Part shown: piece by piece, positions 334-44,536 of the stretch
How positions within the stretch are numbered: the first letter of the stretch is position 1
Layout of the letters: each line of letters begins with the position of its first letter
Assembly: GCA_043228905.1 (NCBI GenBank)
Contig: JBHGNT010000069.1
Location: 62,001-126,000, forward strand
DNA: 64,000 nt
Reading direction: 5' to 3'
Source: Azolla caroliniana
Lineage: Eukaryota > Plantae > Polypodiophyta
Notes under the pieces: model-generated
Seen by the model: only the letters and a program-made list of their open reading frames with translations
Databases searched by the model: none
What the model was told of the DNA's origin: nothing
Made by a program: the position numbers and the translations under genes

Positions 334-1794
<1,461 letters not shown>

Positions 1795-5319: not shown

Positions 5320-6774
5320 ATGATGGTGGATGAAGAAGAAGAAGAAGGAGAAGAAGGAGAAGAAGAAGAGATGGTGGAGACGTTATTTTCACCCCCCTCT
5401 CCGTTGATGGAAGCCACCATTCCTGCATCTGTTGTCGACTCCCTCCCAACCATTTCGAAACGCCAGAGACGCCCAAATGTCCGATTGAACGAGATTGGGG
5501 TATATACTGCTCCTCATAGCAATCCTTCTTCGAACGACTGTTTCCTCAAAAGGAAAGGAGCAGAAGGCATTAAACTGGTCCCCTCTGTTGTTCTCCTTCC
5601 TCCTCCTTCTCCGTCATCGTCATCAGGTGAAAGACTCAAACACATCCCTAAATCGATTAATAAACGTGGTAAAGATGGTGATTTTGATGAAAATGATGAT
5701 GATTCCTTCTCCAAATTAGCCCTCGTTGATAAAATTGGGGGTAAGAAAGTATCCAAGAGAGCCTATATTAGCAAGGGCAACTTCTCTAAGAGGCATCAAA
5801 CAACACACCCTCATTCTGATGACTTTAACCATCTCCCTCATGAAGAAAACCATCGCCCAGTTCATTTGATTGAAGAAAAGAGTCACCCTTATGAGTTTAA
5901 TCATCATCAGTGTGAAGATAACCGTTATCCACTTGATGATTGCGAAGATAATATTCACCCAAATGAGTTTAATGATCGATCACTTCATCATTCTCAAGAA
6001 AATCACAGCCATAGATTGATGTATTGTAAGAACATGTCCGGAGTCACAGATGGTTTCTTAGAAGCTGCTGATGGTGCTTGCTCTGGCACTGAGAAAGGAA
6101 CTATTAGAAGTCAACTCACAATGTCCAATCATGATGATATCCAGCCAGTTGGATTGAGCTTCAAGAAGGACTCTCTCAAGGTTTTGGATGGACAAATCCC
6201 ATCCACAAAGTTGATGAAGAGCAAGACAAAGATCAATCCCAAGGCCAGGACTAAGCCCAATGCCAACATAAAGACCAAGACAAATGTCAAGACCAAGACC
6301 ATTGCCAATGCCAATGCCAATGCCAACATAAAGACCAAGTCAAATGCCAAGACCAAGACCATTGCCAGTGCCAAGACCATGACTGTGATCAAGACTAGGA
6401 ATAGAAGCGGTCATGTCCCAAAGGATATCATACAATCCCCGCCTAAAGATGAAATTGAAGAGAGGGAGGAACCCTCTCGTAGTGATGTTCACGAACGACT
6501 AATCTTGCAACATCCCTCTATATGTCTTGTGCCGCCACCGCCCCTTGATGATAAGGTGAGAGATTGGTTGAAAAAAATTGGACTCGAGAAATACTCTTCA
6601 GTATTTCAGCACCATGAAGTCACAAATGATGTCTTTCCTCTTTTAACCATGGACGACCTCAAGGAGATGGGTGTAAGTGCCATCGGATCCCGGCGTAAGC
6701 TTTTCTCTGAAATCACGAAGCTCCGGCAACCTCTTAGAATGCTTGTGGATGAATCTTTGTCTGATGGAAAGTGA
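5320..6774 (+). CDS. Sterile alpha motif (SAM) domain protein, intronless
   Basis: 484-aa ORF. N-terminal SKRQRRPNVRLNEIG motif typical of plant SAM-only proteins. C-terminal SAM domain VRDWLKKIGLEKYSSVFQHHEV...LLTMDDLKEMGVSAIGSRRKL. Disordered middle with KTK-rich repeats. Confidence 0.9.
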   Translation: MMVDEEEEEGEEGEEEEMVETLFSPPSPLMEATIPASVVDSLPTISKRQRRPNVRLNEIGVYTAPHSNPSSNDCFLKRKGAEGIKLVPSVVLLPPPSPSSSSGERLKHIPKSINKRGKDGDFDENDDDSFSKLALVDKIGGKKVSKRAYISKGNFSKRHQTTHPHSDDFNHLPHEENHRPVHLIEEKSHPYEFNHHQCEDNRYPLDDCEDNIHPNEFNDRSLHHSQENHSHRLMYCKNMSGVTDGFLEAADGACSGTEKGTIRSQLTMSNHDDIQPVGLSFKKDSLKVLDGQIPSTKLMKSKTKINPKARTKPNANIKTKTNVKTKTIANANANANIKTKSNAKTKTIASAKTMTVIKTRNRSGHVPKDIIQSPPKDEIEEREEPSRSDVHERLILQHPSICLVPPPPLDDKVRDWLKKIGLEKYSSVFQHHEVTNDVFPLLTMDDLKEMGVSAIGSRRKLFSEITKLRQPLRMLVDESLSDGK

Positions 6775-9397: not shown

Positions 9398-10015
9398 TTA
9401 TTTGACAGAGCACTTGGCTCCAGCAGCTTCTAGCTGTTTCTTAGCTTCATCAGCTTCTTCCTTAGTGGCGCCTTGCTTGAGGGGTTTAGGCAGGCCTTCG
9501 ATGAGATCTTTGGCTTCTTTGAGGCCAAGGCTAGTGAGGGATCGGATAGCCTTGATCACTGCGATGCGTTGAGCTGTGGGGACCTCATCGATGATGACAT
9601 CGAATTCGGTTTGTTCTTCGACTGCAGGGGCAGCTTCAGCCACTGCGGCGGCGGCACCAGGCGCGGCTGCAGCAGCAGGAGCAAAGGCGGCAGCAGTGAC
9701 TCCGAGCTCGGTCTGCAGCCAATCAACCAGGTTCCGTGCCTCCTCCAGGGTTAGGGACTTTATCTCACCCCCCAACTTCTCCAGCTTCGCAGTGTCGACG
9801 GCCGCCCTTACTGCAAGGGATGAAGCAGGCGCGGTGCTTGGGCGGCCCAGGTATGGCTTCTTCGTCTTCATGCGCAGGGCCGGCCCGAACAGGGAGCTCC
9901 GAGATAGGGAAGGAGACGAGGATGGAGGGGATTGCGAGGAAGATGATGGTGATTGCGATGTGGAAGAAGCTGTGGGGAGGATGAGGAAGGACGAACAAGC
10001 TAAAGCAGCAGCCAT
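9398..10015 (-). CDS. RPL12: Plastid-targeted 50S ribosomal protein L12 (bL12c), intronless
   Basis: Ser-rich transit peptide ending AVRA, then [12 protein letters not shown], an Ala-rich hinge and EEQTEFDV...[15 protein letters not shown]...[10 protein letters not shown]. Confidence 0.96.
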
Positions 10016-10325: not shown

Positions 10326-10380
10326 GGACACACGTAGCGGACGATTTCCGTTGCTTATATCGATATAACTTCATCAGTAT

Positions 10381-10448
<68 letters not shown>

Positions 10449-10596
10449 GTCTTTTGTTGCTTGCACCGATATAACTCAGTCTGTATGCAATGAGTGAGAG
10501 AGATTTCTGTTGGTTATACTTATATAACTCGGTCTGTATGTTGTGAGTGAAAGAGAAATTTCCATTGCTTATACCAATATAACTCGCTTTGTATGT

Positions 10597-10633
<37 letters not shown>

Positions 10634-10720
10634 CTTTATCTTGTAGTGAGAAAGAGAGAGATTTCGATTTCTTATACCGATATAACTGGGTCCGTATGTA
10701 GTGTGTGACAGAGAAATATC
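10262..10720. repeat. (TC)n microsatellite followed by a ~54 bp minisatellite with embedded (TG)n/(AG)n expansions
   Basis: (TC)n at 10269-10320. Five diverged units of TTGCTTATACCGATATAACTCGGTCTGTATG...GAGAGATTT. (TG)n(AG)n at 10383-10448 and (AG)n at about 10600-10630. Confidence 0.85.
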
Positions 10721-12617
10721 ATTGAGACCGTGAGGTTGTCCACCAAACCACCACACTCCATGTTGGCATGCACTATTATGGGTTTAGTTTGAGGGATTTG
10801 AACCCTCGTATAGTTGTTTCACAGAGAATATATTTAAAGCCCTGCATTCTGCAATGACATGTAGTGTGACAATTGAACCGACATATGGTTGTTTAATGAA
10901 TACTATCAAATTGTGCACTTGCTTGTTACATTCCACAATGGCATTCAATAGAGGCAATGGGATTTGCACCCCCCCGACCCGTTCATGTATGAGGACATGT
11001 CCTTATCAATAAGCTTCATCAGGAATGACTTTTTTCCTTGGGTCAGATGAAGAGATTTCTAAACAATCTATTGTGTCATGAACCCCATTGGGGATGATGA
11101 GAAGGTGGTGGTTGAGGTACAAGTCCAATTTTTATGTTGAAGGAAACAAATTGGAATACGGAACTTTGTGACTTGTTCCGGAATGCGCCTCGCTACCACT
11201 TGCTCATTCACATTACTTGATTTTTTCTAGGATATCTTTCATGATTAGAGTAATAGCTTTCACGGAGTCTTTCCTCCATGTGGAAATCATTAAGGGATCC
11301 TTGATCAATCTCTACCTTTGTTCTAACAAATTGGGGTATATGAGGTTCCAATTTTGTCCGAAGCATATTAGCACTACTAGCAATCACTTAACTAGGCTAT
11401 CCTTAAGAATACTTAAACTTGACGATTCTTAAAACCAAGTGATGGAAACAAGCTATTATGTATGTTAATCTATACATAAACAATAAAACAATACATTGAA
11501 GGCAATCACAATATTCTATTAACAAATTCTTCATCAACTTCATACAAACCAAGTCCTTAGGTTGGGATACTTGTGACACATATTTTTTTCCAAAAAAGGG
11601 GTTACTTTCCCATTAGTTGGGAGATTTTTAGAGAAATATTATACAAGAAATGGGGGAATCACCTCCCACCCTCCCTCTGTTGAAGGCCAGCTCTAGATAC
11701 CTACTTACATTAAGTAGAAAGTAAGAGAGGATATGTACGCAGTCTCGAATTCTTGAACTTAACAGATGTAATATCATATTCTTTGGTTTTGATATCCATA
11801 TGAGTTGTACTATCTTCAATGTAGAATATTGGTCATAGGCTAAAAATATACAAAAACATGTTTATCTTGGAAATTATGGTGATTTACCCTTTATTATGGA
11901 GGAATCGTTGATGCTTGATGGGCTTGTAATGCCGAAATAACCCTTAAGGGTTTCCAAGTCCAACTCATATAAACGGCCTAGAGCTCTTATGTAAAAGGGG
12001 CCTTTGGGGCTACACTTTGGTCCTCATTCTATAACTTTGCATCCACTAAGAACCACTTTCTTTCACTCAAAAATCCCATTCTAATCAATCAAGATATACG
12101 TGTATTATTATTTTATTTTCCAAAAAAACCTACTTCCATTAGTTAAGGCAATGTACGTAGGATAATATACAACTCATATCTTACAGGCCAACTTGCATGG
12201 GGAAAAGAAAACAACATGCGTAAAGGAAACAACAAAAACACTCCAAAACACCACATCATTCAATGAGCATAGCATTATTCAACCGCATACCCTCCACGTG
12301 AGCCTCATACAACCCGAATTCAGCATAGACATCCTCCAATCTCTTCTCGTGGCAGCACCCATCTATATGTTAGGTACACTTGGAGGGAACAACCCCCGTG
12401 GTGGTTGATAATTCCACTTCGTTTTGCCATCCACCATCTGCAACATCGGAGAACCTCTCCATTTCAGAAGGAACCGAGCTCTAGCTTCTTCACTTGCGTC
12501 TGAGGGCCCTTGAAGGCTTTCAAACTCTCCTCATAACGTAGAAATAAGATTAAACTAGATCATCATTAAACTCTCAGTCGGTGGGGTTCGCTTACCTGAG
12601 AAAGTCTCCTTGCACCT

Positions 12618-15600
12618 TATTAGAGGCATGAACTAATGTAAGCATTAGACAAGGATAGAATATATATAAATAGATAGAAAGGAGAGAGAGAGAAAGAAGG
12701 GTGTCGATCCACCCGACCACCCCCCAGCGAAGGAATCAAGACGGACTCGAGCCTCGATCAGCGTCCCATACCACCGTCGTGGCGTCGAGTCATACCTGGT
12801 GCTGGCGCGCTCGCTACAAGAGTTGACCCACCACAAGATAGAATCTCGACGTAGTCAACAAGATGATCAAATGAGGGTAGTTAGGCCTCTTATTTATAGT
12901 GATACCCAAGGCCCCCCATGCAAGTTCACACTTGGCCTAATGGGTTGTCTCAATCCTGAGGATTAAAAGTAATCCTCCCCTTCTTTACACTCTCATTTAA
13001 CCCTCACAGTTATCCACGTGTATAGAATACTACGGTAAATTCTCACTACGAGATATTATATGGTCATGCCCGTAACACACTCCCCCTCTTTAAAACATTG
13101 CACTCTTGCAATGGAAAGTTAGGGAAGTTAGTTCCGAGAGAATTTTCGCGTTCCCATGTGGCATCTTTTATTGATTTATCCATCCATTTATTTCCCCAAA
13201 GTTCGGAGCCCACGCCACCAGGCGGCGGCCTTACCCCCTAGTTCTCGGCCGACGTATGCAATCTTCGTACTATCTGGCGTGGGATAGAGCTCAAAATGAG
13301 ACTCCCATCGGCCCAACCACGTGCAAATTGCTTCTTCGGTTCTTTCCTTTTTTTCTCCCATAAATGGCTTAACGACAAACGATGTTTCACCCTATCGCTC
13401 ATCAAGTCTATTAGTCTCACGTTGTAAACTAATGACACGTGCCTTGAGAGCACTTTGAGATTGCTGAAGTTCGGTCATTTGTTGAGCGGTGAAACTAAGG
13501 TATTGGGTTATTTGTGAAAAATACATCTCAATGGACATTTGTCCAGGAGAATTTCCTTGAGTTCCTTCCGCTTGAGCGGATGACATCGGGTCGTTATTTT
13601 GAGCCATTGAATGATTATTTCTGGCAAAGAAATAGGATAAGGTCAGACAAATAGTCATAACATCATGTCGTGATGTAAACAAATCATGGACAAACATTAA
13701 TCGATATCATGATCTCACGTCAATACCCCTCTAGACGTATGAGATGAGGTTCAAGATCAGGTTACTATGGTAACACAAAGGTGTTTTAAAAACCACGGGG
13801 GTGACAAATTAATGTCTTTCCCTTATCTCTATATCGATTTTTTCATGGCGGCTCCCCGAGGCTCAACCATGTATGTTCGCGTCATGAATAGTTTATACAC
13901 GAAAAAAATGTTAACAATAAACTATGTTTCTGTGCCCACATATGTGGTTTCGGCTCTTTAAGTCCTATTGCAAGGACCCCGAAGTGTACTTAGACCTCAA
14001 ATCTAAACATGTGTTATAGTCATATGTATCAACGATGTTGTATGGTCTTGGTTATATTTGAACTCGAGACCTCGAGAACAAATGCATTAAACACTTGAGC
14101 CAACCAAGTAAGTTGCTCTTCTTGAATGTTTGATGTTTCATGCGTATAAGAGATATGCGAGGCATTTGCCCATATATGTTTTTTTAAAAGAAACACATAT
14201 GTCAAGAGTCCTTATTTCCCCCTCGTTTACTACAAAATATGTTGGTATGTTACTTAACCCCAAGTCTCGTAATTACGATAGCATACGCCAAAGTGCAACC
14301 TAATGGTCATGCCAAATGAGCCCTGTTTTTGCAGTAGACCAACGTGGCCTATCACATGGTTACGTCATTACGAATGCCTTTCGTAAGAATGATCTCATGG
14401 TGGCATCTTATCCATGTAACGAGGGAGGGATGTTGGATATGTGTGTCATAGGAGCGACCTACATGAAGTGGGTCAAGCCCTACGTTCTAACCTTCATTGT
14501 GGCTATAAGCATTTCTTTACGTAATAAAATCGAAGTCACCGACTGGAATGTCAACAATAAAAAATTGTTGAAAAAAGGGATGGTGACAACGTCATCCTCA
14601 CAAAAATGTGAGGACGGCCACCAAGATCCTTTCCCCGAAAAGGAAAACATTCGATACTAAAAGGAAATTGATAAATTCATAGTTTTTTGGGGGGGATGGA
14701 ATCTGTCTATCATTTGTAATCATATTTCTGAACTAAAAAAAAAACTGTGAATTTACCAATTCCCTATTAAAATCACGTAATAACTTATATATACATATGT
14801 ATATTATCACATGTATACGATCAAATACGTATACACGTGATCACATATGTGTATATTAAACAAATCGTTACATCAAATAGCCATAAATGATATAATCGAG
14901 ATACGTAATCGAGGCATATACCTCTACGCAAATGAAACATCCAAAAATAGGGGTTCATCGTAATACGCAATTGAGGTATTGACCTCTTACGCATACGACA
15001 CCAAACGCATATCATTTATAACGAAATTGAGGTATTGACCTCATACGCATACATAACATATGTACGTGAACGTAATACGCAATTGAGGTGTTAACCTCGT
15101 ACGCATACGACACTAATCACATATTATTTATATGTCAAATGAGGTATTGACCTCGTGCACATATGTAAACGTTTCATACAACCAATTAATTACCACTACA
15201 ACATCATTAAATTAATGAAAACAATTACATATAGACTATACACATGATTAGATGGGAGAAGAAAAAATAGAAAAAATAAAATAAGGAAAGCGTTACCGAA
15301 GTTCCTTTGTTGATCGTTGTCTAGATCAAGGCCGACCGCACATCGATCGATCACCATCAATCAACAAAACAAAAGACAACAAAAGAAACATTAGAACATA
15401 GGCTCTAATACCAACTATTAGAGACATGAACTAATGTAAGCATTAGACAAGGATAGAATATATATAAATAGATAGAAAGGAGAGAGAGAAAGAAGGGTGC
15501 CGATCCACCCGACCACCCCCGAGCGAAGGAATCGAGACGGACTCGAGCCTCGATCGGCGTCCCATACCACCGTCGTGGCATCCAGTCGTACCTGGTGCTG

Positions 15601-15872
15601 GCGCGCTCGCTACAAGAGTTGACCCACCCCAAGACAGAGTCTCAAAGTAGTCAACAAGATGATCAAATGAGGGTAGTTAGGCCTCTTATTTATAGCGATA
15701 CCCAAGGCCCCCAAGCAAGTTCACACTTGGCCTAATGGGTTGTCTCAATCATGAGGATTAAAAGTAATCCTCCCCTTCTTTACACTCTCGTTTAACCCTC
15801 ACAGTTATCCATGTGTATAGAATACTACGGTAAATTCTCACCATGGGATATTATATGGTCATGCCCGTAACA
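12618..15872 (-). mobile_element. Non-autonomous internal-deletion derivative of the Ty3/gypsy chromovirus family
   Basis: LTRs at 12618-13077 and 15416-15872. TSD CACCT at 12613-12617 and 15873-15877. tRNA-iMet-type PBS at 15401-15413 and PPT at about 13080-13093. A gag 5' fragment ([15 protein letters not shown]) is fused at about 13190 to the chromodomain-encoding tail. Confidence 0.95.
14661..14767. mobile_element. Small MITE nested in the leader of the deleted LTR element
   Basis: Absent from the homologous position (about 37614-37620) of the intact copy. Imperfect TIRs GGAAATTGATAAATTCATAGT / ACTGTGAATTTACCAATTCCC. TAA on both sides (14658-14660, 14768-14770). Confidence 0.7.
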
Positions 15873-16399
15873 CACCTAGATACCCACACTTGCCAAACTG
15901 TAAGGCCGACCACTAATAACCATATGTCCACGTATTGTTCCTGTATGTAGAATGAACCTCCTTGCGTTGAAGGTTGTACAGCTCCTTGCATTACCTTTAA
16001 AGAAGGATTATTTCCTATCCCCCCTTGAAAACCACGCAACCGATTCAGTGGCCACCCAAGTGACTGTTGCGCTCGATACATGAACATCAACCCCGAATAG
16101 AGCCAAGATTCTTAAGCTCCTCGTCCAAACTTTTTGGGCTTGTGGGCAGCTCCACAATTACTTAGCAATTCTATATCTAATCAAGACATGTTTTATGTTT
16201 CTTATTTGGTGGTTATGTATTTAGTTAAGTCGAATATATTTCTTAATTGTGGAGTATTTAGGTGTGTGTTGTCGTTATTTTAAATTAAGAAACCCTCAAG
16301 GCTTCCTCAATTGCATGGAGTAGTGAGGTAAGTGCTTTATGATGTTGATGCATGGAATGGGATTTGTCATTGGGGAGTGTCACAATCCCTTGGTTAGTG

Positions 16400-17900
16400 C
16401 ACCATGAGGAAGGCAACTTTTGAAGACTTCGTAGTCACCCTTGGGTGTGCAACATTGTAATGTATGAGTCATGTTGGCTTTTAGAGAAACTCAACTCACT
16501 TGAACCTTTGGATTAGACAAAGATAAAGCTACGATAATTGAGGAGAGAGATTCAAGGAAGAAATCATTGGCTCTACAAATGAAGAGATCAAGAAATAAGT
16601 GGCCAAATGGGGGAGTGTCTTGTCTGGTATGTACTTAACACCCTTTGCCACAAGTTACTTCAACTCAACCTTTGAACATAATGGGTTTTTGGATTAGAAG
16701 CCAACCAATACTATGTATCATAGACTATTATGTAATCATGCTTAGTTACATATGCAAGTGTCAAAATGTTTGGAAAATGAGAAAGATGGGGCCTCAAAGG
16801 CCAAACATTTTTTAGAGTGGGTGGCATCATGGTCTCCCTTTTTGGGAATAAAGTATTCATTTGGCGGCTTATTGTCAACAATTTGCCAATGCCAATGCCT
16901 TACAAATATGGCAAATGAGAAAGATAAAGGCATGGTGGCTATGAGTCAGTGATAAAGGGTTCCACTACCATATGTTTTTAAGGTAATGTGTCATGTGGTG
17001 AGTTATGGTTACCATGGCTTACAAAAGTGATATAATTGCAATGGCATGTCCTTCTAATGTCTCCTCAATACATGACATTGAGAGTTTCTTTGTTTTTCAA
17101 TAGGTTGACACATTTTTTCATATTTATGCTTCGTATGGTTTCCCTTGACAATTATTTGCCTAGGGGAGGACTTGTATATCATCTTGAAAGTATATTTGTG
17201 TTTTTAAATCAATTTGATTTTGCTAGTCATGGTATCATTGGGGCCTGGGGTGTGTGAAATACATTCCATTTTTATGGAAAACATGGCTTTGTTGAACCTT
17301 TTTTTCCATTATTTGTCATTAAATGCAATCTTAGTTAGAAAGTGCATATTCCTTGGCTATTTGCATCTGTGCAATGTTATGAATACCTACAACACGATGG
17401 GGAATGGTTTATTTTCAGGCAAACCATATTCTATTGTCGATGTAACATTTCCTTTATGAACCAACTTTCCTCTACACCATCAATAATAGTGTCATAGGGC
17501 TTTTCAATGGAGATCTAAGTACTTATTTGTATAACCCAATCACTCACAAAAAATATACTTCATTGTTGGGTAGATTTCATATGTACCAACATTTTGTGTT
17601 GTGCATTGATGCCTATATTATTCTTAAATATTTAGGTGAGCTTGTTAGGACATGTCTTTAACTCGGTGCAAATGGCATGGATGATGTGTTCATGTACATA
17701 CTTTGGCCTAGGATGAGTTACACAACTAAAAGGGTGTGTGAGCATAGGGTTAATGTGTTTTGAGATTCCCATTTGAACGATATTAAGAAACTAAAGATAA
17801 TGTACGAGTCTTCTTTAGGGTGGGGATTTATCACGATAGGAATTTTGCTTGTATTATATTCAGATTAAAGATGAGGATTCATATGAATGGTTATTGATAA
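16400..17900 (+). mobile_element. Possible highly degraded LINE ORF2 remnant
   Basis: Only scattered motif-like fragments (LD.DKA near 16510, NHILLS near 17420, KYLG near 17625); no open frame. Confidence 0.3.
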
Positions 17901-18406
17901 GGAGAGAGAGTTACTCAACCATGTGCATTACCCAAACTAACATCCTAATATCCCTTATAACGATAGGCATTGATTATGAAATGAATCCTTTGAGCAACCA
18001 ATCTTATTCATGCGAATGATGATGTGATTTGCAAAAGTTAGTTGCCATTGGCATGTTATTCATTGTTGGTGTTGCTAGTAGATATATAGTGAGAATTTAG
18101 GAAGCTTGAATACTTGTGCTTTGATTGTTGGGCCTTTTTTTATCGAGGGGAAGAATCAACGTGCTAATTCATGTTAGAAGCAAAATGGTCAATTAAAAAT
18201 GATAAGAGTCTATAATTGAAAAACAACTAAGCAAAACAAATTATCAAGTTACTTGAAGCAGCTTGGTAATGTATTACTACATTAAATTATTAGGGTATTA
18301 TAGACTTAATTTCCTTAGTGAAACATAGGGACAAACTCATGATAGACCAATGTGGAGATGTCTCTATAGCAAGAAAAGTGTCTAGTATTTGTAAATGTGT
18401 TCCTTG

Positions 18407-19110
18407 TATTTTTTTTTTCCCAAAAAAACATCTACTTCCATTAGTTAAGAATGTACAAAGGAATCATTTACAACTCATATCTTACAAGACATCTTGCATG
18501 TCAAAGAAAAACAATGTGTAGATGAAACAACATAAAAAAAACAACTCCAAAACACCACATCATTCTATGTGTATAGCATTACTCGAACACATATTCTCCA
18601 CGTGAGCCTCATACAAAACAGAATTCAGCATAGATGTCCTCCATTTGCTCCTCATGGCAGCACCCATCTAGATGTTAGGAACACTTGGAGGGAACAGCCA
18701 CCGCGGTGGTTGATAATTCCACTTCACTTTACCATCCAGTATCTGCAGCATCGGCGAACCGCTCCATTTCCGAAGGAATCGAGCTCTAGCTTCTTCACTT
18801 GCATCAGATGGCCCTTGAAGACTTTCAAACTCACCTCGCAACGTAGAAATAAGATTAAACCAGATCATCATTAAATTCTCAGCCGGTGGGGTTCGTTTAC
18901 CTGCGAGGGTCTCCTTGCACCGAGATACCCACACTTGCCAGACCGTAAGGCCGACCACTAATACCCATATGTCCACGTAGCGTTCCTGTAAGAAGAATAA
19001 ACCTCCTTGCGTTGCTGGTTGCACAGATCCTTGCTTCACCATTAAAGAAGGATTGTTTCCACAATGCCTTCAAAAGGGGAATACTATCATTTTTAACCAT
19101 TAGGTGACTT
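18407..19110 (-). mobile_element. 5'-truncated LINE 3' end (copy B)
   Basis: ORF 18668-19042 (VWQVWVSRC...KVKWNYQPPRWLFPP) resembles a plant L1 ORF2 C-terminus, followed by a ~250 bp 3' UTR and an oligo-A tail (T-run about 18408-18418). Homologous to copy A. Confidence 0.75.
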
Positions 19111-36330: not shown

Positions 36331-36518
36331 GTTATATTAAGGGATATACGAACATGATAGGATAAGATGTTACTCATGATTGTCTACATAATATTTTCTT
36401 TTGGACTTTCTCTATTTCAATTCATGCATTAAGTGAGATAGTGCAACCCCACACCCCCATTCCACAAAGCAACACTTGAACTACCATAACATCGAATAAC
36501 ATCAACCTCACTTCCCAT

Positions 36519-36973
36519 TGTTACGGGCATGACCATATAATATCCCGTGGTAAGAATTTACCGTAGTATTCTATACACGTGGATAAGTGTGAGGGTTAAA
36601 TGAGAGTGTAAAGAAGGGGAGGATTACTTTTAATCCTCGGGATTGAGACAACCCATTAGGTCAAGTGTGAACTTGCCTGGGGGCCTTGGGTTTCGCTATA
36701 AATAAGAGGCCTAGCTACCCTCATTGGATGATCTCTTGACTACATCGAGACTCTGCTCGTGTGGTGGGTCAACTCTTGTAGCGAGCGCGCCAGCACCAGG
36801 TACGACTCGACGCCACGGCGGTGGTATGGGACGCCGATCGAGGCTCGAGTCCGTCTCGATCCCTTCGCTCGGGGGTGGTCGGGTGGATCGGCACCCTTCT
36901 TTCTCTTTCTCCTTTCTATCTATCTTTTCATTATCCTTATCTTAAGCTTACATTAGTATCTAGATCTATAATA
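36519..36973 (+). repeat. 5' LTR
   Basis: TGTTACGGG...TCTATAATA; TATAAATA at about 36697; followed by the PBS. Confidence 0.97.
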
Positions 36974-37214
36974 TTTGGTATCAGATTTTTGTACTAATGT
37001 TTCTTTGTTTTTCATTTGTCTTTTGATTGATGCTGATCGATCGTTGTGCGGTTGGCCTTGATCCAGACAACGATCAACAAAGAACTTCGGTAACTCTTTC
37101 CAGAATTTTTCTTTCTATTCTCTCTTCTCCCATCTAATCATGTGTTTAGTTTATATGTAATTTTTTTCATTAAGTCAATGATGTTGTAGTGGTCTTTAAT
37201 TGATTATCTAAAAC

Positions 37215-37490
37215 GTTTACATATGTGCACGAGGTCAATACCTCGTTTGACATATTAATAATATGTGATGAGTGTCGTATGCGTACGAGGTTAATACCTC
37301 AATTACGTATTACGTTCACGAACATATGTTACGTTTGCGTATGAGTTTAATACCTTGATTTGTTGTAAACGATATGCGTTTGGTCTCGTATGCGTAAGAG
37401 GTCAATACCTCCATTGCGTATTACGATGATCTCTTATTTGTGGATGTTTCGTGTGCGTAGAGGTATATACCTCGATTACGTATCTCGATC
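37215..37490 (+). repeat. Array of five ~56 bp hairpin units in the retrotransposon leader
   Basis: GAGGT-N4-ACCTC cores at 37231, 37287, 37343 (degenerate), 37398, 37460. Homologous cores in the second copy at 15141, 15085, 15029, 14973, 14911. Confidence 0.9.
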
Positions 37491-38661
37491 ACATCATTTG
37501 TGGCTATTTAATATAACGATATGTTTAATATAGGCATATGTGGTCACATATATACGTATTTGATCGTATATATGTGATAAGTAAACATATGTGTATATTC
37601 GTTATTACGTGATTATATCGAAAGTTGTCCTTGTCGGGAAAAGGATGTTGGTGGCCGTCCTCACATTTTTGTGAGAATGGCGTTGTCACCATCCCTTTTT
37701 CAACATTTTTTTATTGTTGATAACCCCATTGACGACCTCGATTTCGTTACGTAAAGAAACGCGAATAGCCAAAATGATGTTGAGTACGTAGGGCTTGACC
37801 CACTTCAAGTGAGGTCGCTCCAATGACGCACGTATCCAACATCCCTCCCTCGTTACATGGATACGATGCCACCATGAGCTCGTTCTTACGAGAGGCATTC
37901 GTAATGACGTGACCATGTGATGGCCCACGTGAGCCTACTACGAAACGAGGGCTCATTTGGCTTGACCATTAGGTTGCACTTTGGCGTATGCCATCGTAAT
38001 TACGAGACTTGAGGTTAGGTAACGTACCAACATAGTTTTGGTAAATGAGGGCGAAATAAGGACCCTTGCCATATATGTTCTTTTAAAAAAACATATATGA
38101 TCAATTGCCTCGCATATCTCTTATACGCATCAAACATTAAGCATTCGAGAAGAGCAACTTACTTGGTTGGCTCAAGTGTTTAATGTATTTGTTCTCGAGG
38201 TCTCGAGTTCAAATATGACAAAGACCATACAACATCCTTGATACATATGAATATAACACATGTTTAGACTTAAGGTCTAAGTGCACCTCGGGGTCCTCGT
38301 AATAGGACTTAAAGAGCCGAAACCACATATGTGGGCACCGAAACATAGTTTATTGTTAACATTTTTTTCGTGTATAAACTATTCATGACGCGAACATACA
38401 TGGTTGAGCCTCGGGGAGCCACCATGAAAAAATCGATATAGAGATCAGGGAAAGACATTTATTTGTCACCCCCATGGTTTTTAAAACACCTTTGTGTTAC
38501 CATAGTAACCTGATCTTGAACCTCATCTCATACGTCTAGAGGGGTATTGATGTGAGATAATGATATCGATTAATGCTCGCCCATGATATGTTTACATCAC
38601 GACAAGATGTTATGACTATATCTCTGACCTTATCCTATTTCTTTACCAGAAATAATCTTTA

Positions 38662-41600
38662 ATGGCTCAAATTAACGACCCGATGTCATCCGCTCAAGCG
38701 GAAGGAACTCAAGGGAATCCTCCTGGACAAATGTCCACTGAGATGTATTTGGCACAAATAACCCAATACCTTAGTTTCACCGCTCAACAGATGACCGAAC
38801 TTCGGCAATCTCAGAGTGCTCTTGAGGCACGTGTCATTAGTCTACAACGTGAGACTAATAGACCTGATGAGCGACAAGGTGAACCATCATTTGTCGTTAA
38901 GCCATTTACGGGAGACAAAAAGGAAAGAACCGAAGAAGCAATCTGCACATGGCTGGGACGATGGGAGTCTCATTTTGAGCTCTATCCCACGCCAGATAGT
39001 ACGAAGATTGCATATGTCGGTCGAGAACTCGGGGGTAAGGCCGCCGCCTGGTGGCGTGGCCTCCGTACTATGGGGAAATTGCCCGATACCTGGATAGATT
39101 TTGTCACGGTTTTTAAGGGCCAATTTCTGCAACCTCCCTCTCGAACCGAGGCAGCACAAGCTTTAATGAACCTCTCTAGCAGGAAATTTTCCTCGCTAGA
39201 AGACTATGTTCACCATGCTAGAACCCAAATCCAAAAATCGGGTCTAGAAGGGGACAATTGGTTGATAGCTTGTTTTGTCAATGGCATCCCCAATTCGGAC
39301 TATCACTGGATAGTGCACGATAAGGATCCAAAATCCTTCGAAGAGGCCGTTGAAATAGTTCTTCGCTATCAACGCACTTCGAAGAAGGACCATAACAAAC
39401 CCAACGAAGCGCCCGGGACTAAGCAGTCGCAATTTGTTGGGAAACGCAAGACACCCAACGAATTCCTGGATCGCGATTGTAAGCGACAACATCCTTTTTG
39501 TGTATTCTGCAAAAAGAAGGGTCATACAAAAGATCAATGTCGAAAGCTCCAACGGAAAGAGCACGACAACAAAGCTAAAGCTGCAGACCATAAAGGTCAG
39601 ATTCCTAATGTCCTTCAGGTCTATACACATCATTTAAGTAATTGTCAATGTTCTTTCCCTCACTATGTATTGGGTCCCAATGATTTACTACGTGCAAACG
39701 GGTATATCAATGGATCTCCCGTACAATTTTTATTTGATTCGGGAAGCTCACACAATTTTGTGAATGATCGTTTGGTTCAGATATGGGGAATCCAACCCAC
39801 CGTAAGTGATCACACCTACACGGTGCACTTGGCTGATGGAAGAGTACAATACATCAACGGGGCGATTCATTCATTAGGAATTTCTATTGATACTTATATA
39901 GAGGAAGTAGACTTCCATGTAATGAATCTTTGTACCACCGATGTAATACTGGGTTATCCCTGGTTTTATAATAAAAACTCTTCTTTATTTATTGATTGGG
40001 TTCGTCATTCCATTTCTTTTGTACTGAACGATTGTACGCATTTTATTCAATGTGTAAAAAAACAATCCCTCTCGATTGTTTCCTCGTGTCCATCAATATC
40101 CGAGTTGTCTTGTTCTACGTTATTTTATTGTGTACTTGATCCGGACATTCACGTTTACAATATCGATAATGTCCCGATTCAATTAACATATTTTGAACAA
40201 CAACAACTTGATGAAATCTTAAATGATTTTCATGATGTTTTTCCAAGTGAACTACCTGATGGGTTACCTCCTAAACGTAATATAGACCATCGTATAGATA
40301 TTGTACCTGGTGTTGCACCAATAAGTATACCTCCGTATCGCTTAAGTCGATCCGAAGAAGATGAGGTATCTAAGCAACTCAAGGACTATTTACGAATGGG
40401 TTATATACATTATAGTAAATCTCCATGGGGTGCACCAGTTCTCTTGGTTAAAAAGAAAGAGGGCACATGGCGTATGTGTATTAATTACCGACGCTTGAAT
40501 AAAGTGACGATCAAGAATTCGTATCCATTGCCCCGGGCTGACGATCTAATTGACCGTCTCCAGGGAGCTCGGTATTTTACGAAACTTGATCTCCGTACTG
40601 GCTACCATCAAATACGAATAAGTGAGGACGATGTTCCTAAAACGGCATTTCGTACGCGCTATGGCCATTACGAGTTTTTGGTTATGCCTTTTGGTTTGAC
40701 CAATGCTCCGGCTACTTTTCAACAAGAAATGAATGACATTTTCCGAGAACAACTTGGAAAATTTGTCGTTATTTTCTTGGATGATATTTTAGTTTATAGC
40801 CGTACATTACAAGAACATGCTAGACATGTCCGCTTTGTTTTACAAACATTGCGTGACAAACAGTTTTATGCGAAGATCTCAAAATGTGAGTTCTTCAAGA
40901 AATCAATTACTTATCTAGGACATCTCATAACCGAACGAGGAGTTGAAATTGATCCTTCTCGCATTGAGAAAATCAAGCTTTGGCCCACTCTTCGGAATAT
41001 TCGAGAAGTTCGATCATTCCTTGGTTTTGTGGGGTTTTTGCGAAAGTCTCTTCGTAATTACTCCCAATTGACGACGCCGTTTACTGATCTTTTAAAAGGT
41101 CAAACGCGTAAGTCTACAAAACCTATTGTGTGGAATGCTACACTAGACCTTGCATTTAAGGAACTCAAGGACCTAGTTTGCAAGGCTCCTTCACTTCTTT
41201 TACCTGATCCTTCAAAACCTTTTGAGGTTGAAACCGATGCAAGCGATTATGCTATAGGTGCTGTCTTGTATCAAGATGGTAAACCAATAGCATTCGAGAG
41301 TAAGAAACTTGATTCTGCTCAATGTCGGTATACCGTTCAAGAAAAGGAATTATTTGCAGTTATACATGCGCTCAAAACATGGCGCCATTATCTTTATGGA
41401 AATCACTTTGTGGTAACTACGGACCACGAGTCCTTGAAATATTTTTGTGACCAACAAGACCTGAAAGGTCGTAAGGCACGATGGGTTGATCTCATCCAAG
41501 ACTTTGATTTTTCCATACGATATCGTAAAGGTTCCATGAACATTGTCGCTGATGCACTAAGTCGCATCCGTGAAGTTAACACGCTTAGCTTCACTGAAAT

Positions 41601-43095
41601 ATCATCAGATCTTTATGATCACCTTCGAGGAAAGTATCCTGATGACAGTTATTTCGCAAAATACTGGGCAAGAGTTGAGTCTGGAACAGACACCACCACA
41701 TCCTCGAAGGAATACTTCCACATTGCTAACGGTTTGCTCTACCGTAATGGGAAGGTTTGTGTTCCACATTTACCCGAGGTCAAAAAGAGGATTCTTTTTG
41801 AATGCCATGATGCACCCTCAGCAGGGCACCCTGGAATACATCGTACACTCGTTCTCATCTCCACTCAATTTTATTGGCCTAAGATGCGTCCTGACATACA
41901 TAGCTATGTGACTAAATGTCACCAGTGTCAAGTTAACAAAGCCGAGCGACTTAAAGCCGCAGGACTTTTACATCCCCTGGACATTCCCAATAATAAGTGG
42001 GAAAGTATATCCATGGATTTTATTGTTAGCCTTCCTCGCACCCAAAAAGGTCATGATGCCATCTGGGTTGTCGTTGATCGACTAACTAAAATGGCCAGAT
42101 TTATTGCTACTAAAACCACGGTAACAGCTCCTGAATTGGCTTACCAATTCGTTGACGAATTGTTTCGTTTTTATGGGTTACCGATGGATATCATGAGTGA
42201 TCGAGATCCAAAGTTTACTAGTGACTTCTGGACACAAGTCTTTAAGAAGTTAGAAACTACGTTGAGCATGAGCTCCACGGATCATCCTCAATCCGATGGA
42301 CAGACAGAACGAGTAAATCAAATTATTGAGGACATGCTTCGAGCATACGTTGGTGCAAAACCAACAAAATGGGAACGTTATCTCCCAATTTTGGAGTTTG
42401 CTTATAACAGCTCCAAGCATACGTCGACGGGATATAGTCCTTTTATGTTGATGTATGGTTTTCAGCCACGAGCCCCGATTGATGTTAATATACATCATGA
42501 TGAGTTGCGAAGTACGCAAAACTTTCTTCGGGATATGCAAGATATGTTGCATATTGCACGAGATAATATAAAAACAGCTCAAGATAGAGCGCGTTTTTAT
42601 GCCGATCATCATAGGCAACCTCGTGTATTCAACCCTGGACAGAAGGTATTTTTACGTGTACCTCACAATTCTAAGACATTGTCTACGAGTAAGTGCGCTA
42701 AGTTAGCCCCACGTTTTTGTGGACCTTTTACAGTCCTCAAACGCATTGGGTCATCAGCCTATCGTCTCGCTCTTCCCGATGGTGTCGGAATTCATCCAGT
42801 CTTTCATGTGAGTCGTCTAAAAGAACTTCTAGGTTCTGGCGACAATACAGTTACAACTGAAACTCTGGTTACTTCTGAAGAATTATCTTCTAAACCACAT
42901 GTACCAGAAAGAATTCTCGATGTTAAAACAAAAAAATTACGTACTAAAGAAATCCGAGAATTCAAAATAAAATGGATGGATAAATCAATAAAAGATGCCA
43001 CATGGGAACGCGAAAATACTCTTAGAACTAACTTCCCTAACTTTCCATTGCAAGAGTGCAATGTTTTAAAGAGGGGGAGTATGTTACGGGCATGA
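38662..43095 (+). CDS. Gag-Pol polyprotein (Gag-CCHC, aspartic protease, RT, RNase H, integrase, chromodomain)
   Basis: 1477 aa uninterrupted: [14 protein letters not shown]; [11 protein letters not shown]; [10 protein letters not shown]...MPFGL...FLDD; ETDASD; HDAPSAGH...CHQC; SMDF...SDRD...GQTE; GPF; EFKIKW...DATWE. Confidence 0.98.
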
Positions 43096-43536
43096 CCATA
43101 TAATATCCCGTGGTAAGAATTTACCGTAGTATTCTATACACGTGGATAAGTGTGAGGGTTAAATGAGAGTGTAAAGAAGGGGAGGATTACTTTTAATCCT
43201 CGGGATTGAGACAACCCATTAGGTCAAGTGTGAACTTGCCTGGGGGCCTTGGGTTTCGCTATAAATAAGAGGCCTAGCTACCCTCATTGGATGATCTCTT
43301 GACTACATCGAGACTCTGCTCGTGTGGTGGGTCAACTCCTGTAGCGAGCGCGCCAGCACCAGGTACGACTCGACGCCACGGCGGTGGTATGGGACGCCGA
43401 TCGAGGCTCGAGTCCGTCTCGATCCCTTCGCTCGGGGGTGGTCGGGTGGATCGACACCCTTCTTTCTCTTTCTCCTTTCTATCTATCTTTTCATTATCCT
43501 TATCTTAAGCTTACATTAGTATCTAGATCTATAATA
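43082..43536 (+). repeat. 3' LTR
   Basis: Identical to the 5' LTR except at two positions; preceded by the PPT and followed by TSD CCCAT. Confidence 0.97.
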
Positions 43537-44536
43537 CCCATGATCGAGTATCACTCTGGTTACATTGATTGATTCATGAACGTATAATAACTATTCCAAC
43601 CCCTCAACGTCTAGACTCAAAGCATACATTCCACCTATTCGTGGATGAACATCAATACCAATATATTTGAAGCTTTGCCCCATTTGTATTGGTTCTGCCT
43701 TGTATGTAAAGGTGGGGTAGTGTCTTGGTTGTATTAGCTTATATGCTACCATTTTGGTTTTCTCCACATGAAAGTTAGCCCATTGATTTGGCACAATGTT
43801 TCTAATACATCAAGTAAGTGTTGCACATCATCCAATTTATATGAGAATAATCAATAACTTCAAACATATCGGAGATAGATACATAGATGGGTAGATTATA
43901 TTATTGTCTTCGGATGTCAAATATTACCTATGAGACCAAAAATATTACATTTCACATAATACATGTGAAAGTGACTAGTGATTCTCGATGTTCAAGAACT
44001 TTACCAACGAATGTTGCAATTGAGAGTCACACATTGTGGTTGTAAGAGAAATTCGTGCGAGGATTGGGTTTGGTCGAAGACGCATGGAAGGCATTGTTGA
44101 ATATGATCAAAGGCAAAGCATTGTATTAAAGCGTGATACCCGGTCTCTCATACTTGTTTATGGCAAAGTATGCATAGTTGACCACTCTCATCACTTGTGC
44201 CCCCCTAATCTCTCGTCTCACATCACAACGCATGTGAGCTAAGTCGCATGGAAACAATTTGTTCAAATGGGCGACAACTGGATGGGCTCTAGGATGTATC
44301 AATTGTATAGTTCACCAGTTCAGCGAAGAATATGGTTTTTGGAGTTAGTTCCAACAGGTGTAGTATATAATATGCGATTAGCAAGGTTTCCAAATTTGGA
44401 GATGGGCTTAACTAGATTTGGTGGAGCCCACTACTAAGCTACTACTGATTAGTCAGGAAAAGAAGAAAATGACGCACTTGCTTTGCTGCATTCAGAGGAA
44501 AGAAAGGAAATACATACGAGGCAATCAGAAGAGGAT

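What the first reader, a model, noticed from the sequence alone, without database searches (positions are those of the whole stretch)
37215..37490. Regularly spaced hairpin array in the chromovirus 5' leader
Seen: five units at 56/56/55/62 bp spacing, about 250 nt after the PBS. Each has a palindromic GAGGT-N4-ACCTC core. Several have extended arms (CGTATGCGTA ... TT(A/G)CGTATTACG) that lengthen the stem with G-U pairs on the sense strand. The units are joined by 20-30 nt linkers that differ from each other. The diverged, non-autonomous copy keeps all five cores with 56/56/56/62 spacing (14911-15154), and its core changes fall in loops or give G-U pairs. Linkers are homologous between the two copies, so this is not spacer acquisition. 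Inference: a repeated cis-acting module, such as a multivalent Gag-binding, packaging or dimerisation signal, a small-RNA precursor or decoy, or a phased palindromic DNA-binding array. I do not know of a description for this family.
Basis: partly seen in the sequence, partly recalled or inferred. Interest (0 to 1): 0.8.

Follow-up and report, generated by a model that had tools for sequence, protein, structure and literature searches.

The report
Hairpin array in fern retrotransposon leader
A jumping gene, likely from a fern, carries five repeated palindromic hairpin units in the long non-coding stretch before its first gene, a stretch predicted to be spliced out of the messenger RNA, so the units likely act as a family-specific protein-binding tag on the full-length RNA that gets copied, a variation on repeat arrays already known from other such elements.

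Summary
The array is real: five units at 56/56/55/62 nt in an intact, young, high-copy Ty3 chromovirus (36519-43536; host likely a fern), also present in a deleted copy. One correction: unit 3 of the young copy is not a palindrome. The array arose by local duplication (56-nt unit, 111-nt dimer). Across the family, cores of units 1, 2, 4 and 5 show no common variant while linkers do (P about 0.05), but the cores show no covariation and the two window copies show no core/linker difference. The motif is absent from relatives. A sister family has a different hairpin array at the same offset after its primer site, while a separate 280-nt block before gag is what is deeply conserved. The leader holds 52 upstream ATGs and lies between conserved donor-like and acceptor-like sites, so it is likely an intron kept only in genomic RNA (no RNA evidence). 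Best reading: a lineage-specific multivalent RNA binding module (0.45). Similar arrays are known (Drosophila gypsy/ZAM, Sireviruses). The scan has not noted this on other DNA.

The parts
36519..36973 (+). 5' LTR of the intact element (copy A), 455 nt, ends TGTTA...TAATA; target-site duplication CCCAT at 36514-36518 and 43537-43541
   Evidence: 2 differences in 455 between the LTRs; sequence
36697..36703 (+). TATA box in the LTR
   Evidence: sequence; block shared with L002
36797..36805 (+). predicted splice donor CAG|GTACGA in the R region; intron would start at 36800
   Evidence: first AG|GT after the TATA box in 6 of 6 LTRs of three families, 22-24 nt before a conserved block; not shown by RNA
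36976..36985 (+). primer binding site TGGTATCAGA (initiator tRNA-Met type, recalled)
37133..37198 (+). 5' arm of a long-range inverted repeat that encloses the array
   Evidence: duplex score 63 against a shuffle maximum of 44.5, 0 of 100 shuffles reach it
37219..37487 (+). the array: five units, cores at 37231, 37287, 37343 (degenerate), 37398, 37460; extended arms in units 2 and 4; dimeric 111-nt higher-order repeat
38219..38268 (+). 3' arm of the long-range inverted repeat
38281..38560 (+). deeply conserved non-coding block before gag, no Rfam family
   Evidence: kept in L001, L002, L007, L010, L011; Rfam scans negative
38624..38649 (+). predicted branch point (CTGAC), pyrimidine tract and acceptor CAG, 12 nt before the gag start
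   Evidence: YAG 8-13 nt before the start codon in 7 of 8 sequences; not shown by RNA
38662..43095 (+). intact single ORF, 1477 aa: Gag-PR-RT-RNaseH-integrase-chromodomain, running 14 nt into the 3' LTR
43068..43079 (+). polypurine tract
   Evidence: sequence
43082..43536 (+). 3' LTR
12618..15872 (-). older non-autonomous copy B, most of gag-pol deleted near 13190, LTRs differ at 21 of 457, target-site duplication CACCT
14911..15154 (-). array of copy B, five cores

Best explanation
The array is a set of five duplicated hairpin units in the 1.7-kb leader of an intact high-copy chromovirus, and it likely works as a lineage-specific, multivalent protein-binding module on the full-length genomic RNA, in a region predicted to be spliced out of the translated message. 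Shown: the anatomy, origin by local duplication, low family-wide variation in four of five cores, absence of the motif from relatives, and a sequence-unrelated hairpin array at the same offset in a sister family. Inferred: that 36800-38649 is an intron, so that primer site, array and conserved block exist only on unspliced RNA; that the units fold as stem-loops on the sense RNA; and that a protein reads stem plus loop. The array would help select or export the family's own genomic RNA, with redundancy that tolerates loss of one unit.
For: Position and leader length match in a sister family: leader 1688 against about 1692 nt, array about 245 nt after the LTR in both (the L002 figure comes from a collapsed contig and the array starts were set by eye). 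The sister unit changes on both sides at 3 of 20 pairs across 3 sequences (20 of 500 shuffles reach this). In our family no variant at 7% or more falls in the 56 core positions of units 1, 2, 4 and 5. Four transitions in paired arms (37305 and 37417; 37356 and 37469 between the copies) all leave G-U pairs on the sense strand, and the conserved extended stem has a G-U pair in 8 of 10 units. Sense fold z -5.7, antisense -3.9. The array sits inside a long-range duplex found in both copies. The leader has 52 upstream ATGs, 0 in the pieces left after the predicted splice. Donor-like sites in 6 of 6 LTRs and YAG before the start in 7 of 8 sequences. Structured leaders act in export in CaMV (PMC8421220, abstract).
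Against: 0 of 5 core pairs covary. Between copies A and B predicted pairs are mostly broken by single changes: 1 double Watson-Crick change among 43 changed pairs, and G-U against A-C outcomes of 14:7 and 5:7. Cores are not better conserved than linkers between the two copies. Unit 3 is degenerate in the young copy and in 63-74% of the depth laid on it in two runs. Much of the leader and gag folds better than shuffles too. The 83-nt sister units show 0 of 23 covarying pairs. L002 has no AG at the acceptor position, and my fixed rule passed only 5 of 8 sequences (background 7.3% of 1676 ATGs). No RNA read supports splicing, and the one long RNA-guess contig runs unspliced across the acceptor (record 23; it may be DNA). 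Loop conservation fits a DNA site equally well.
Confidence: 0.45

Rival explanations
1. DNA-level array: each dyad with its fixed 4-nt spacer and upstream TGCGTA box is a site for a dimeric host transcription or chromatin factor, acting as a downstream enhancer or insulator, as in Drosophila gypsy/ZAM leaders or Sirevirus LTR palindromes.
For: Arms and loops are both conserved and nothing covaries. The upstream box shows 0 variants in 44 positions while the downstream arm region shows 9 in 56. CpG observed/expected is 2.2 in the array against 0.56 in the window, like Sirevirus motifs (PMC2829016, passages). Precedents in PMC8872304 (passages).
Against: Spacing is out of helical phase. G-U-dependent extended stems form on the sense strand only. 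The sister array at the same place is made of long imperfect hairpins with covariation, not short dyads.
Confidence: 0.27
2. Neutral product of template slippage: a palindromic segment was duplicated during reverse transcription, homogenised by switching between units, and carried along by an amplifying family.
For: Dimeric repeat history. Joints that add or drop one unit occur at single-contig depth. Unrelated hairpin repeats occur in L002 and L007. Palindromes promote such indels in Sireviruses (PMC4728375, parts 2-3). No core/linker difference between A and B.
Against: Between units the cores are 86% alike and the outer flanks 27-34%, sharper than even decay would give. Common family variants avoid four cores. 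Unit gain or loss is rare compared with the depth of the five-unit form.
Confidence: 0.2
3. Small-RNA precursor or decoy: units pair with themselves or each other and feed Dicer, producing a small-RNA hotspot.
For: Sirevirus palindrome regions are siRNA hotspots with hairpin potential (PMC4728375). Cross-unit pairing appears in the folds.
Against: Stems are 5 bp, or at most 15 bp with bulges, shorter than a Dicer duplex (recalled). Only chance-level Rfam miRNA matches, and they lie on the neighbouring hairpin. No small-RNA library was offered.
Confidence: 0.08

Closest known systems
Tandem arrays in the 5' UTR of Drosophila gypsy, ZAM, Tirant, accord (PMC8872304, passages)
   Same: Ty3/gypsy element; tandem array with a recurring short motif between LTR and gag; 19 of 49 Drosophila 5' UTRs have tandem organisation
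   Different: Those act on DNA with identified host proteins. Here the units are palindromic hairpins, the host is a plant, and no binding partner is known.
Sirevirus repeated palindromic motifs (PMC2829016 passages; PMC4728375 parts 2-3 of 7)
   Same: Plant LTR element; multiple palindromes with conserved arms; CpG-rich; hairpin-forming; copy-number indels; distinct sets in some families
   Different: Sireviruses are Ty1/copia; their motifs have a CGG-CCG core and lie in the LTR upstream of the TATA box. Ours has a GAGGT/ACCTC core, lies after the PBS, and has long regular linkers.
Retroviral packaging and export signals on unspliced RNA (recalled) and the CaMV 35S leader (PMC8421220, abstract)
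   Same: Structured leader upstream of gag; signal expected only on the unspliced genome
   Different: Here the predicted intron would also remove the PBS and would give the message for the whole gag-pol ORF; nothing is shown experimentally.
Diaspora of soybean, predicted intron upstream of gag (PMC1142308, passages); Ogre and EVADE introns (PMC12786077, PMC5580714, passages)
   Same: Diaspora has predicted donors in the LTR and acceptors near the gag start, with a very long leader
   Different: Diaspora is an Athila-type element and its sites were only predicted; that 2005 paper knew no intron upstream of gag. Ogre and EVADE introns lie within gag-pol (Ogre position recalled). Here the sites are conserved across several families.

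Membership tests
Chromovirus (Ty3/gypsy) | Gag-PR-RT-RH-INT order with C-terminal chromodomain | tested here: met
   Pfam hits in order; Chromo at residues 1414-1459, E 1.3e-6, above cut-off
Chromovirus (Ty3/gypsy) | LTRs, 5-bp target duplication, PBS, PPT | tested here: met
   LTR ends read TG...TA, not TG...CA
Reina / Tekay / CRM / Galadriel / Tcn1 clade | position in an RT-RH-INT tree with reference elements | not tested
   no named reference sequences were available; by eye the chromodomain lacks the first cage aromatic (type II-like; definition)
Sirevirus repeated motif | CGG-CCG core | tested here: not met
   core is GAGGT/ACCTC
Sirevirus repeated motif | located in the LTR upstream of the TATA box | tested here: not met
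   0 units in the LTRs; all 10 lie after the PBS
Sirevirus repeated motif | multi-copy palindrome in a CpG-rich stretch | tested here: met
gypsy/ZAM-type 5' UTR array | tandem motif array between PBS and gag of a Ty3/gypsy element | tested here: met
gypsy/ZAM-type 5' UTR array | bound by host protein as DNA; insulator or enhancer activity | not testable with these tools
   needs binding and reporter assays
Packaging or export signal on unspliced RNA | lies inside an intron of the transcript | tested here: inconclusive
   conserved donor- and acceptor-like sites and 52 upstream ATGs; no spliced read
Packaging or export signal on unspliced RNA | structure supported by covariation | tested here: inconclusive
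   0 of 5 core pairs and 3 of 10 extended pairs change on both sides; two-copy test flat
Packaging or export signal on unspliced RNA | Gag or export-factor binding | not testable with these tools
   bench work
CRISPR-like spacer array | unique acquired spacers that differ between copies | tested here: not met
   linkers homologous between copies and between units 1 and 3
Known RNA family (ribozyme, miRNA, cis-element) | Rfam match at gathering score | tested here: not met
   8 matches at E 0.1-4, all far below gathering score; 0 in L001, L002, L007

The most novel reading that the evidence does not exclude
These fern chromoviruses split their RNA into two pools by splicing out a 1.85-kb leader intron that holds the primer site and all replication signals, and each family writes its own fast-evolving hairpin array at a fixed place in that intron as an identity tag read by its own Gag, next to a shared 280-nt structured core: a two-part, family-specific packaging code.
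Probability: 0.2. Interest if true: 0.72.

Novelty: new variant of a known kind. Interest (0 to 1): 0.42.

Why it matters
How plant LTR retrotransposons tell genomic RNA from messenger RNA, and how they export and package it, is largely open: a 2025 review says export has not been studied directly in plants and that introns are exceptional (PMC12786077, passages). A high-copy family with an intact young copy, a predicted intron spanning the primer site, a replaceable array and a conserved core offers simple tests: one RT-PCR junction, and binding to array against core. If the array proves neutral or a DNA enhancer, it is one more case of a known theme.

Tried and rejected
No whole genome was held, so a family alignment and tree could not be made. 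No relatives in viral contigs or prokaryotic genomes. The unit model found nothing in 16 loci (best 13.5 bits, E 0.77) and the sister-unit model nothing in the window (best 14.7 bits), so a shared GAG...CTC resemblance between the two arrays seen by eye was rejected as unproven. Only L002 (whole leader, collapsed contig) and L007 (about 1.6 kb, no LTR or PBS) are informative for absence; L001 upstream of about position 900 looks like flanking DNA and the other 13 loci do not hold the region. The idea that each unit's flanks pair with separate downstream targets like guide RNAs was not pursued: those matches are 70-76% over 17-23 nt, like many others in the list. A MITE insertion bounded by the long-range repeat was rejected for lack of a target duplication (by eye). 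A ribozyme reading of the conserved block was not supported; its covariation term is +0.36 with 5 of 44 pairs changing on both sides. The long-range duplex was not found in the part of the L002 leader tested (44 of 100 shuffles as good) and is borderline in L007 (1 of 100). RNA-labelled runs held only small shares and were contigs, so expression, strand and splicing could not be read. Tables were cut (464 differences and 169 joints not shown). Earlier scan notes concerned a different, PPT-less lineage.

Full report
Setting. The finding lies in an intact LTR retrotransposon at 36519-43536: 455-nt LTRs that differ at 2 positions, target duplication CCCAT, PBS at 36976, PPT, and one 1477-aa ORF with Gag, protease, RT, RNase H, integrase and chromodomain. 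It is a chromovirus; its clade was not tested. A plastid L12 gene in the window has ferns as its best named near-full-length relatives (62-67% identity), so the host is likely a fern. An older, internally deleted copy lies at 12618-15872 on the minus strand. Public runs of four coded organisms hold the stretch or part of it. Summed contig depth over the array is 100,000-230,000 in run X1, against 33-66 for single-contig joints; the tool warns this is no copy number, but it points to a high-copy family.

Observation. The five units and their spacing are as reported, in both copies, and far beyond chance. Unit 3 of the young copy is degenerate. Only units 2 and 4 have the full extended stem. Linkers 1 and 3 resemble each other and a 111-nt repeat is detected, so the array grew by duplication of a 56-nt unit and then of a dimer. 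It is not a spacer array.

Is it under selection? Between the two window copies, no: 24 of 277 positions differ in the array against 33 of 240 before it and 33 of 561 in the last part of the leader; cores 5 of 70, linkers 7 of 69. Across the family, weakly yes: laying three runs on 37205-37495 gave 23 sites with a variant at 7% or more, 3 in the 70 core positions (all in unit 3), 0 in 44 upstream-box positions, 9 in 56 downstream-arm positions and 11 in 73 linker positions (core against linker P=0.046, or 0.16 without the edges). Caveats: classes were drawn after seeing the data; contigs can land on the wrong unit; and two common variants near the left edge seen (37228, 37230) were missed. The degenerate unit 3 makes up 74% and 63% of the depth laid there in X1 and X4 and 0% in X15. 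Joints that add or drop one unit exist but only at single-contig depth. Between units, cores are 86% alike and outer flanks 27-34%.

RNA or DNA? The region folds better than shuffles on both strands (z -5.7 and -3.9), as palindromes must, and so do many other windows of the leader and gag. No core pair covaries; 3 of 10 extended pairs do, between diverged units. A strand test over the enclosing 1.1-kb domain was flat. In favour of RNA: a conserved G-U pair in 8 of 10 units, four arm transitions that all leave sense-strand G-U pairs, one candidate double change closing unit 1 (37230 and 37245 vary at matching frequencies in three runs, though copy B has the unpaired intermediate), and a long-range duplex around the array in both copies. 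In favour of DNA: conserved loops, fixed spacer and high CpG content.

Relatives. A Gag alignment retrieved 16 metagenome loci. None holds the motif, but only L002 and L007 cover enough leader to count. L002 (Gag 62% identical) has a leader of about the same length and, at about the same offset, an unrelated array of hairpin units. One of its unit types is shared with L007 and changes on both sides at 3 of 20 pairs (3 sequences only); the other type shows none. What is conserved at the sequence level is a different block, 38281-38560, found in 5 of the 16 loci, the others not reaching or lacking that region. So the position and hairpin character of the array seem shared, its sequence is not.

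Leader architecture. From the likely start site to gag there are 52 ATGs, which should block scanning. A donor-like AG|GT is the first such site after the TATA box in 6 of 6 LTRs from three families, 22-24 nt before a conserved block. A YAG lies 8-13 nt before the start codon in 7 of 8 sequences, two pairs of which are close relatives; a stricter rule passed 5 of 8 against a 7.3% background. Splicing 36800-38649 would leave no ATG in the pieces counted (one more ATG sits at 36728 near the likely start site in copy A only). The PBS, the array and the conserved block would then exist only on unspliced RNA. Splice consensus motifs are recalled, and no RNA data support the junction.

Mechanism. 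Best reading (0.45): a redundant, lineage-specific stem-loop array on genomic RNA, likely bound by Gag or a host export or splicing factor. Rivals: a DNA site array (0.27), neutral duplication (0.2), a small-RNA source (0.08).

Comparison with print. Tandem arrays in Ty3/gypsy 5' UTRs are known in Drosophila (PMC8872304, passages) and palindrome arrays in Sirevirus LTRs (PMC2829016, passages; PMC4728375, parts 2-3 of 7). The array works like these in outline but fails the Sirevirus membership tests. An intron upstream of gag was predicted for soybean Diaspora, whose authors knew no example in 2005 (PMC1142308, passages); a 2025 review lists Ogre and EVADE as the notable intron-bearing exceptions (PMC12786077, passages; PMC5580714, passages). 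Chromovirus definitions come from PMC6317226 and PMC3350952 (passages); the CaMV leader from PMC8421220 (abstract). Ten full-text searches listed no description of this family's array; the library lacks most subscription papers and I read no supplements, where repeat libraries or long-read transcript tables could hold it. The scan's own notes had no look-alike.

Verdict. A real feature, a new variant of a known kind. The array alone is of moderate interest; the predicted leader intron and the conserved block beside it are the more testable leads. Interest 0.42.

Noticed in passing
window 38281-38560; L001 1165-1433, L002 595-757, L007 1828-1986, L010, L011: A non-coding block before gag is conserved across families whose Gag is 34-71% identical (82 of 173 columns invariant in 6 sequences), with no Rfam match. 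It is a better candidate than the array for the lineage's basic packaging or translation signal.
   Followed up: partly
window 36800-38649: Predicted 1.85-kb leader intron spanning the PBS, with conserved donor-like and acceptor-like sites in several families.
   Followed up: partly
L002 5985-6440; L007 676-745 and 1095-1310: Sister families carry their own hairpin repeats: two units of about 116-122 nt and three of 83 nt in L002; one homologous unit and a separate 3-4 unit hairpin repeat in L007.
   Followed up: partly
window 36969-36973, 43532-43536, 12618-12622, 15416-15420: All four LTRs of this family end in TAATA rather than TAACA, while L001 and L002 end in TAACA: a family with TG...TA termini that still inserted with clean target duplications.
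   Followed up: no
window 14657-14767: A stretch of about 110 nt present only in copy B folds into a long hairpin with an 18-bp stem, possibly a small foldback insertion.
   Followed up: no
window 12106-19060: Copy B is nested in a repeat pair (12106-12616 plus 15873-16015, against 18407-19060), probably the LTR of another element.
   Followed up: no
window 10355-10724: A 55-nt tandem repeat between microsatellites also carries repeated 5-4-5 dyads.
   Followed up: no
window 418-1794, 5320-6774, 9398-10015: Host genes: six-unit polyubiquitin, a SAM-domain protein, and plastid ribosomal protein L12 whose best named near-full-length relatives are ferns.
   Followed up: yes
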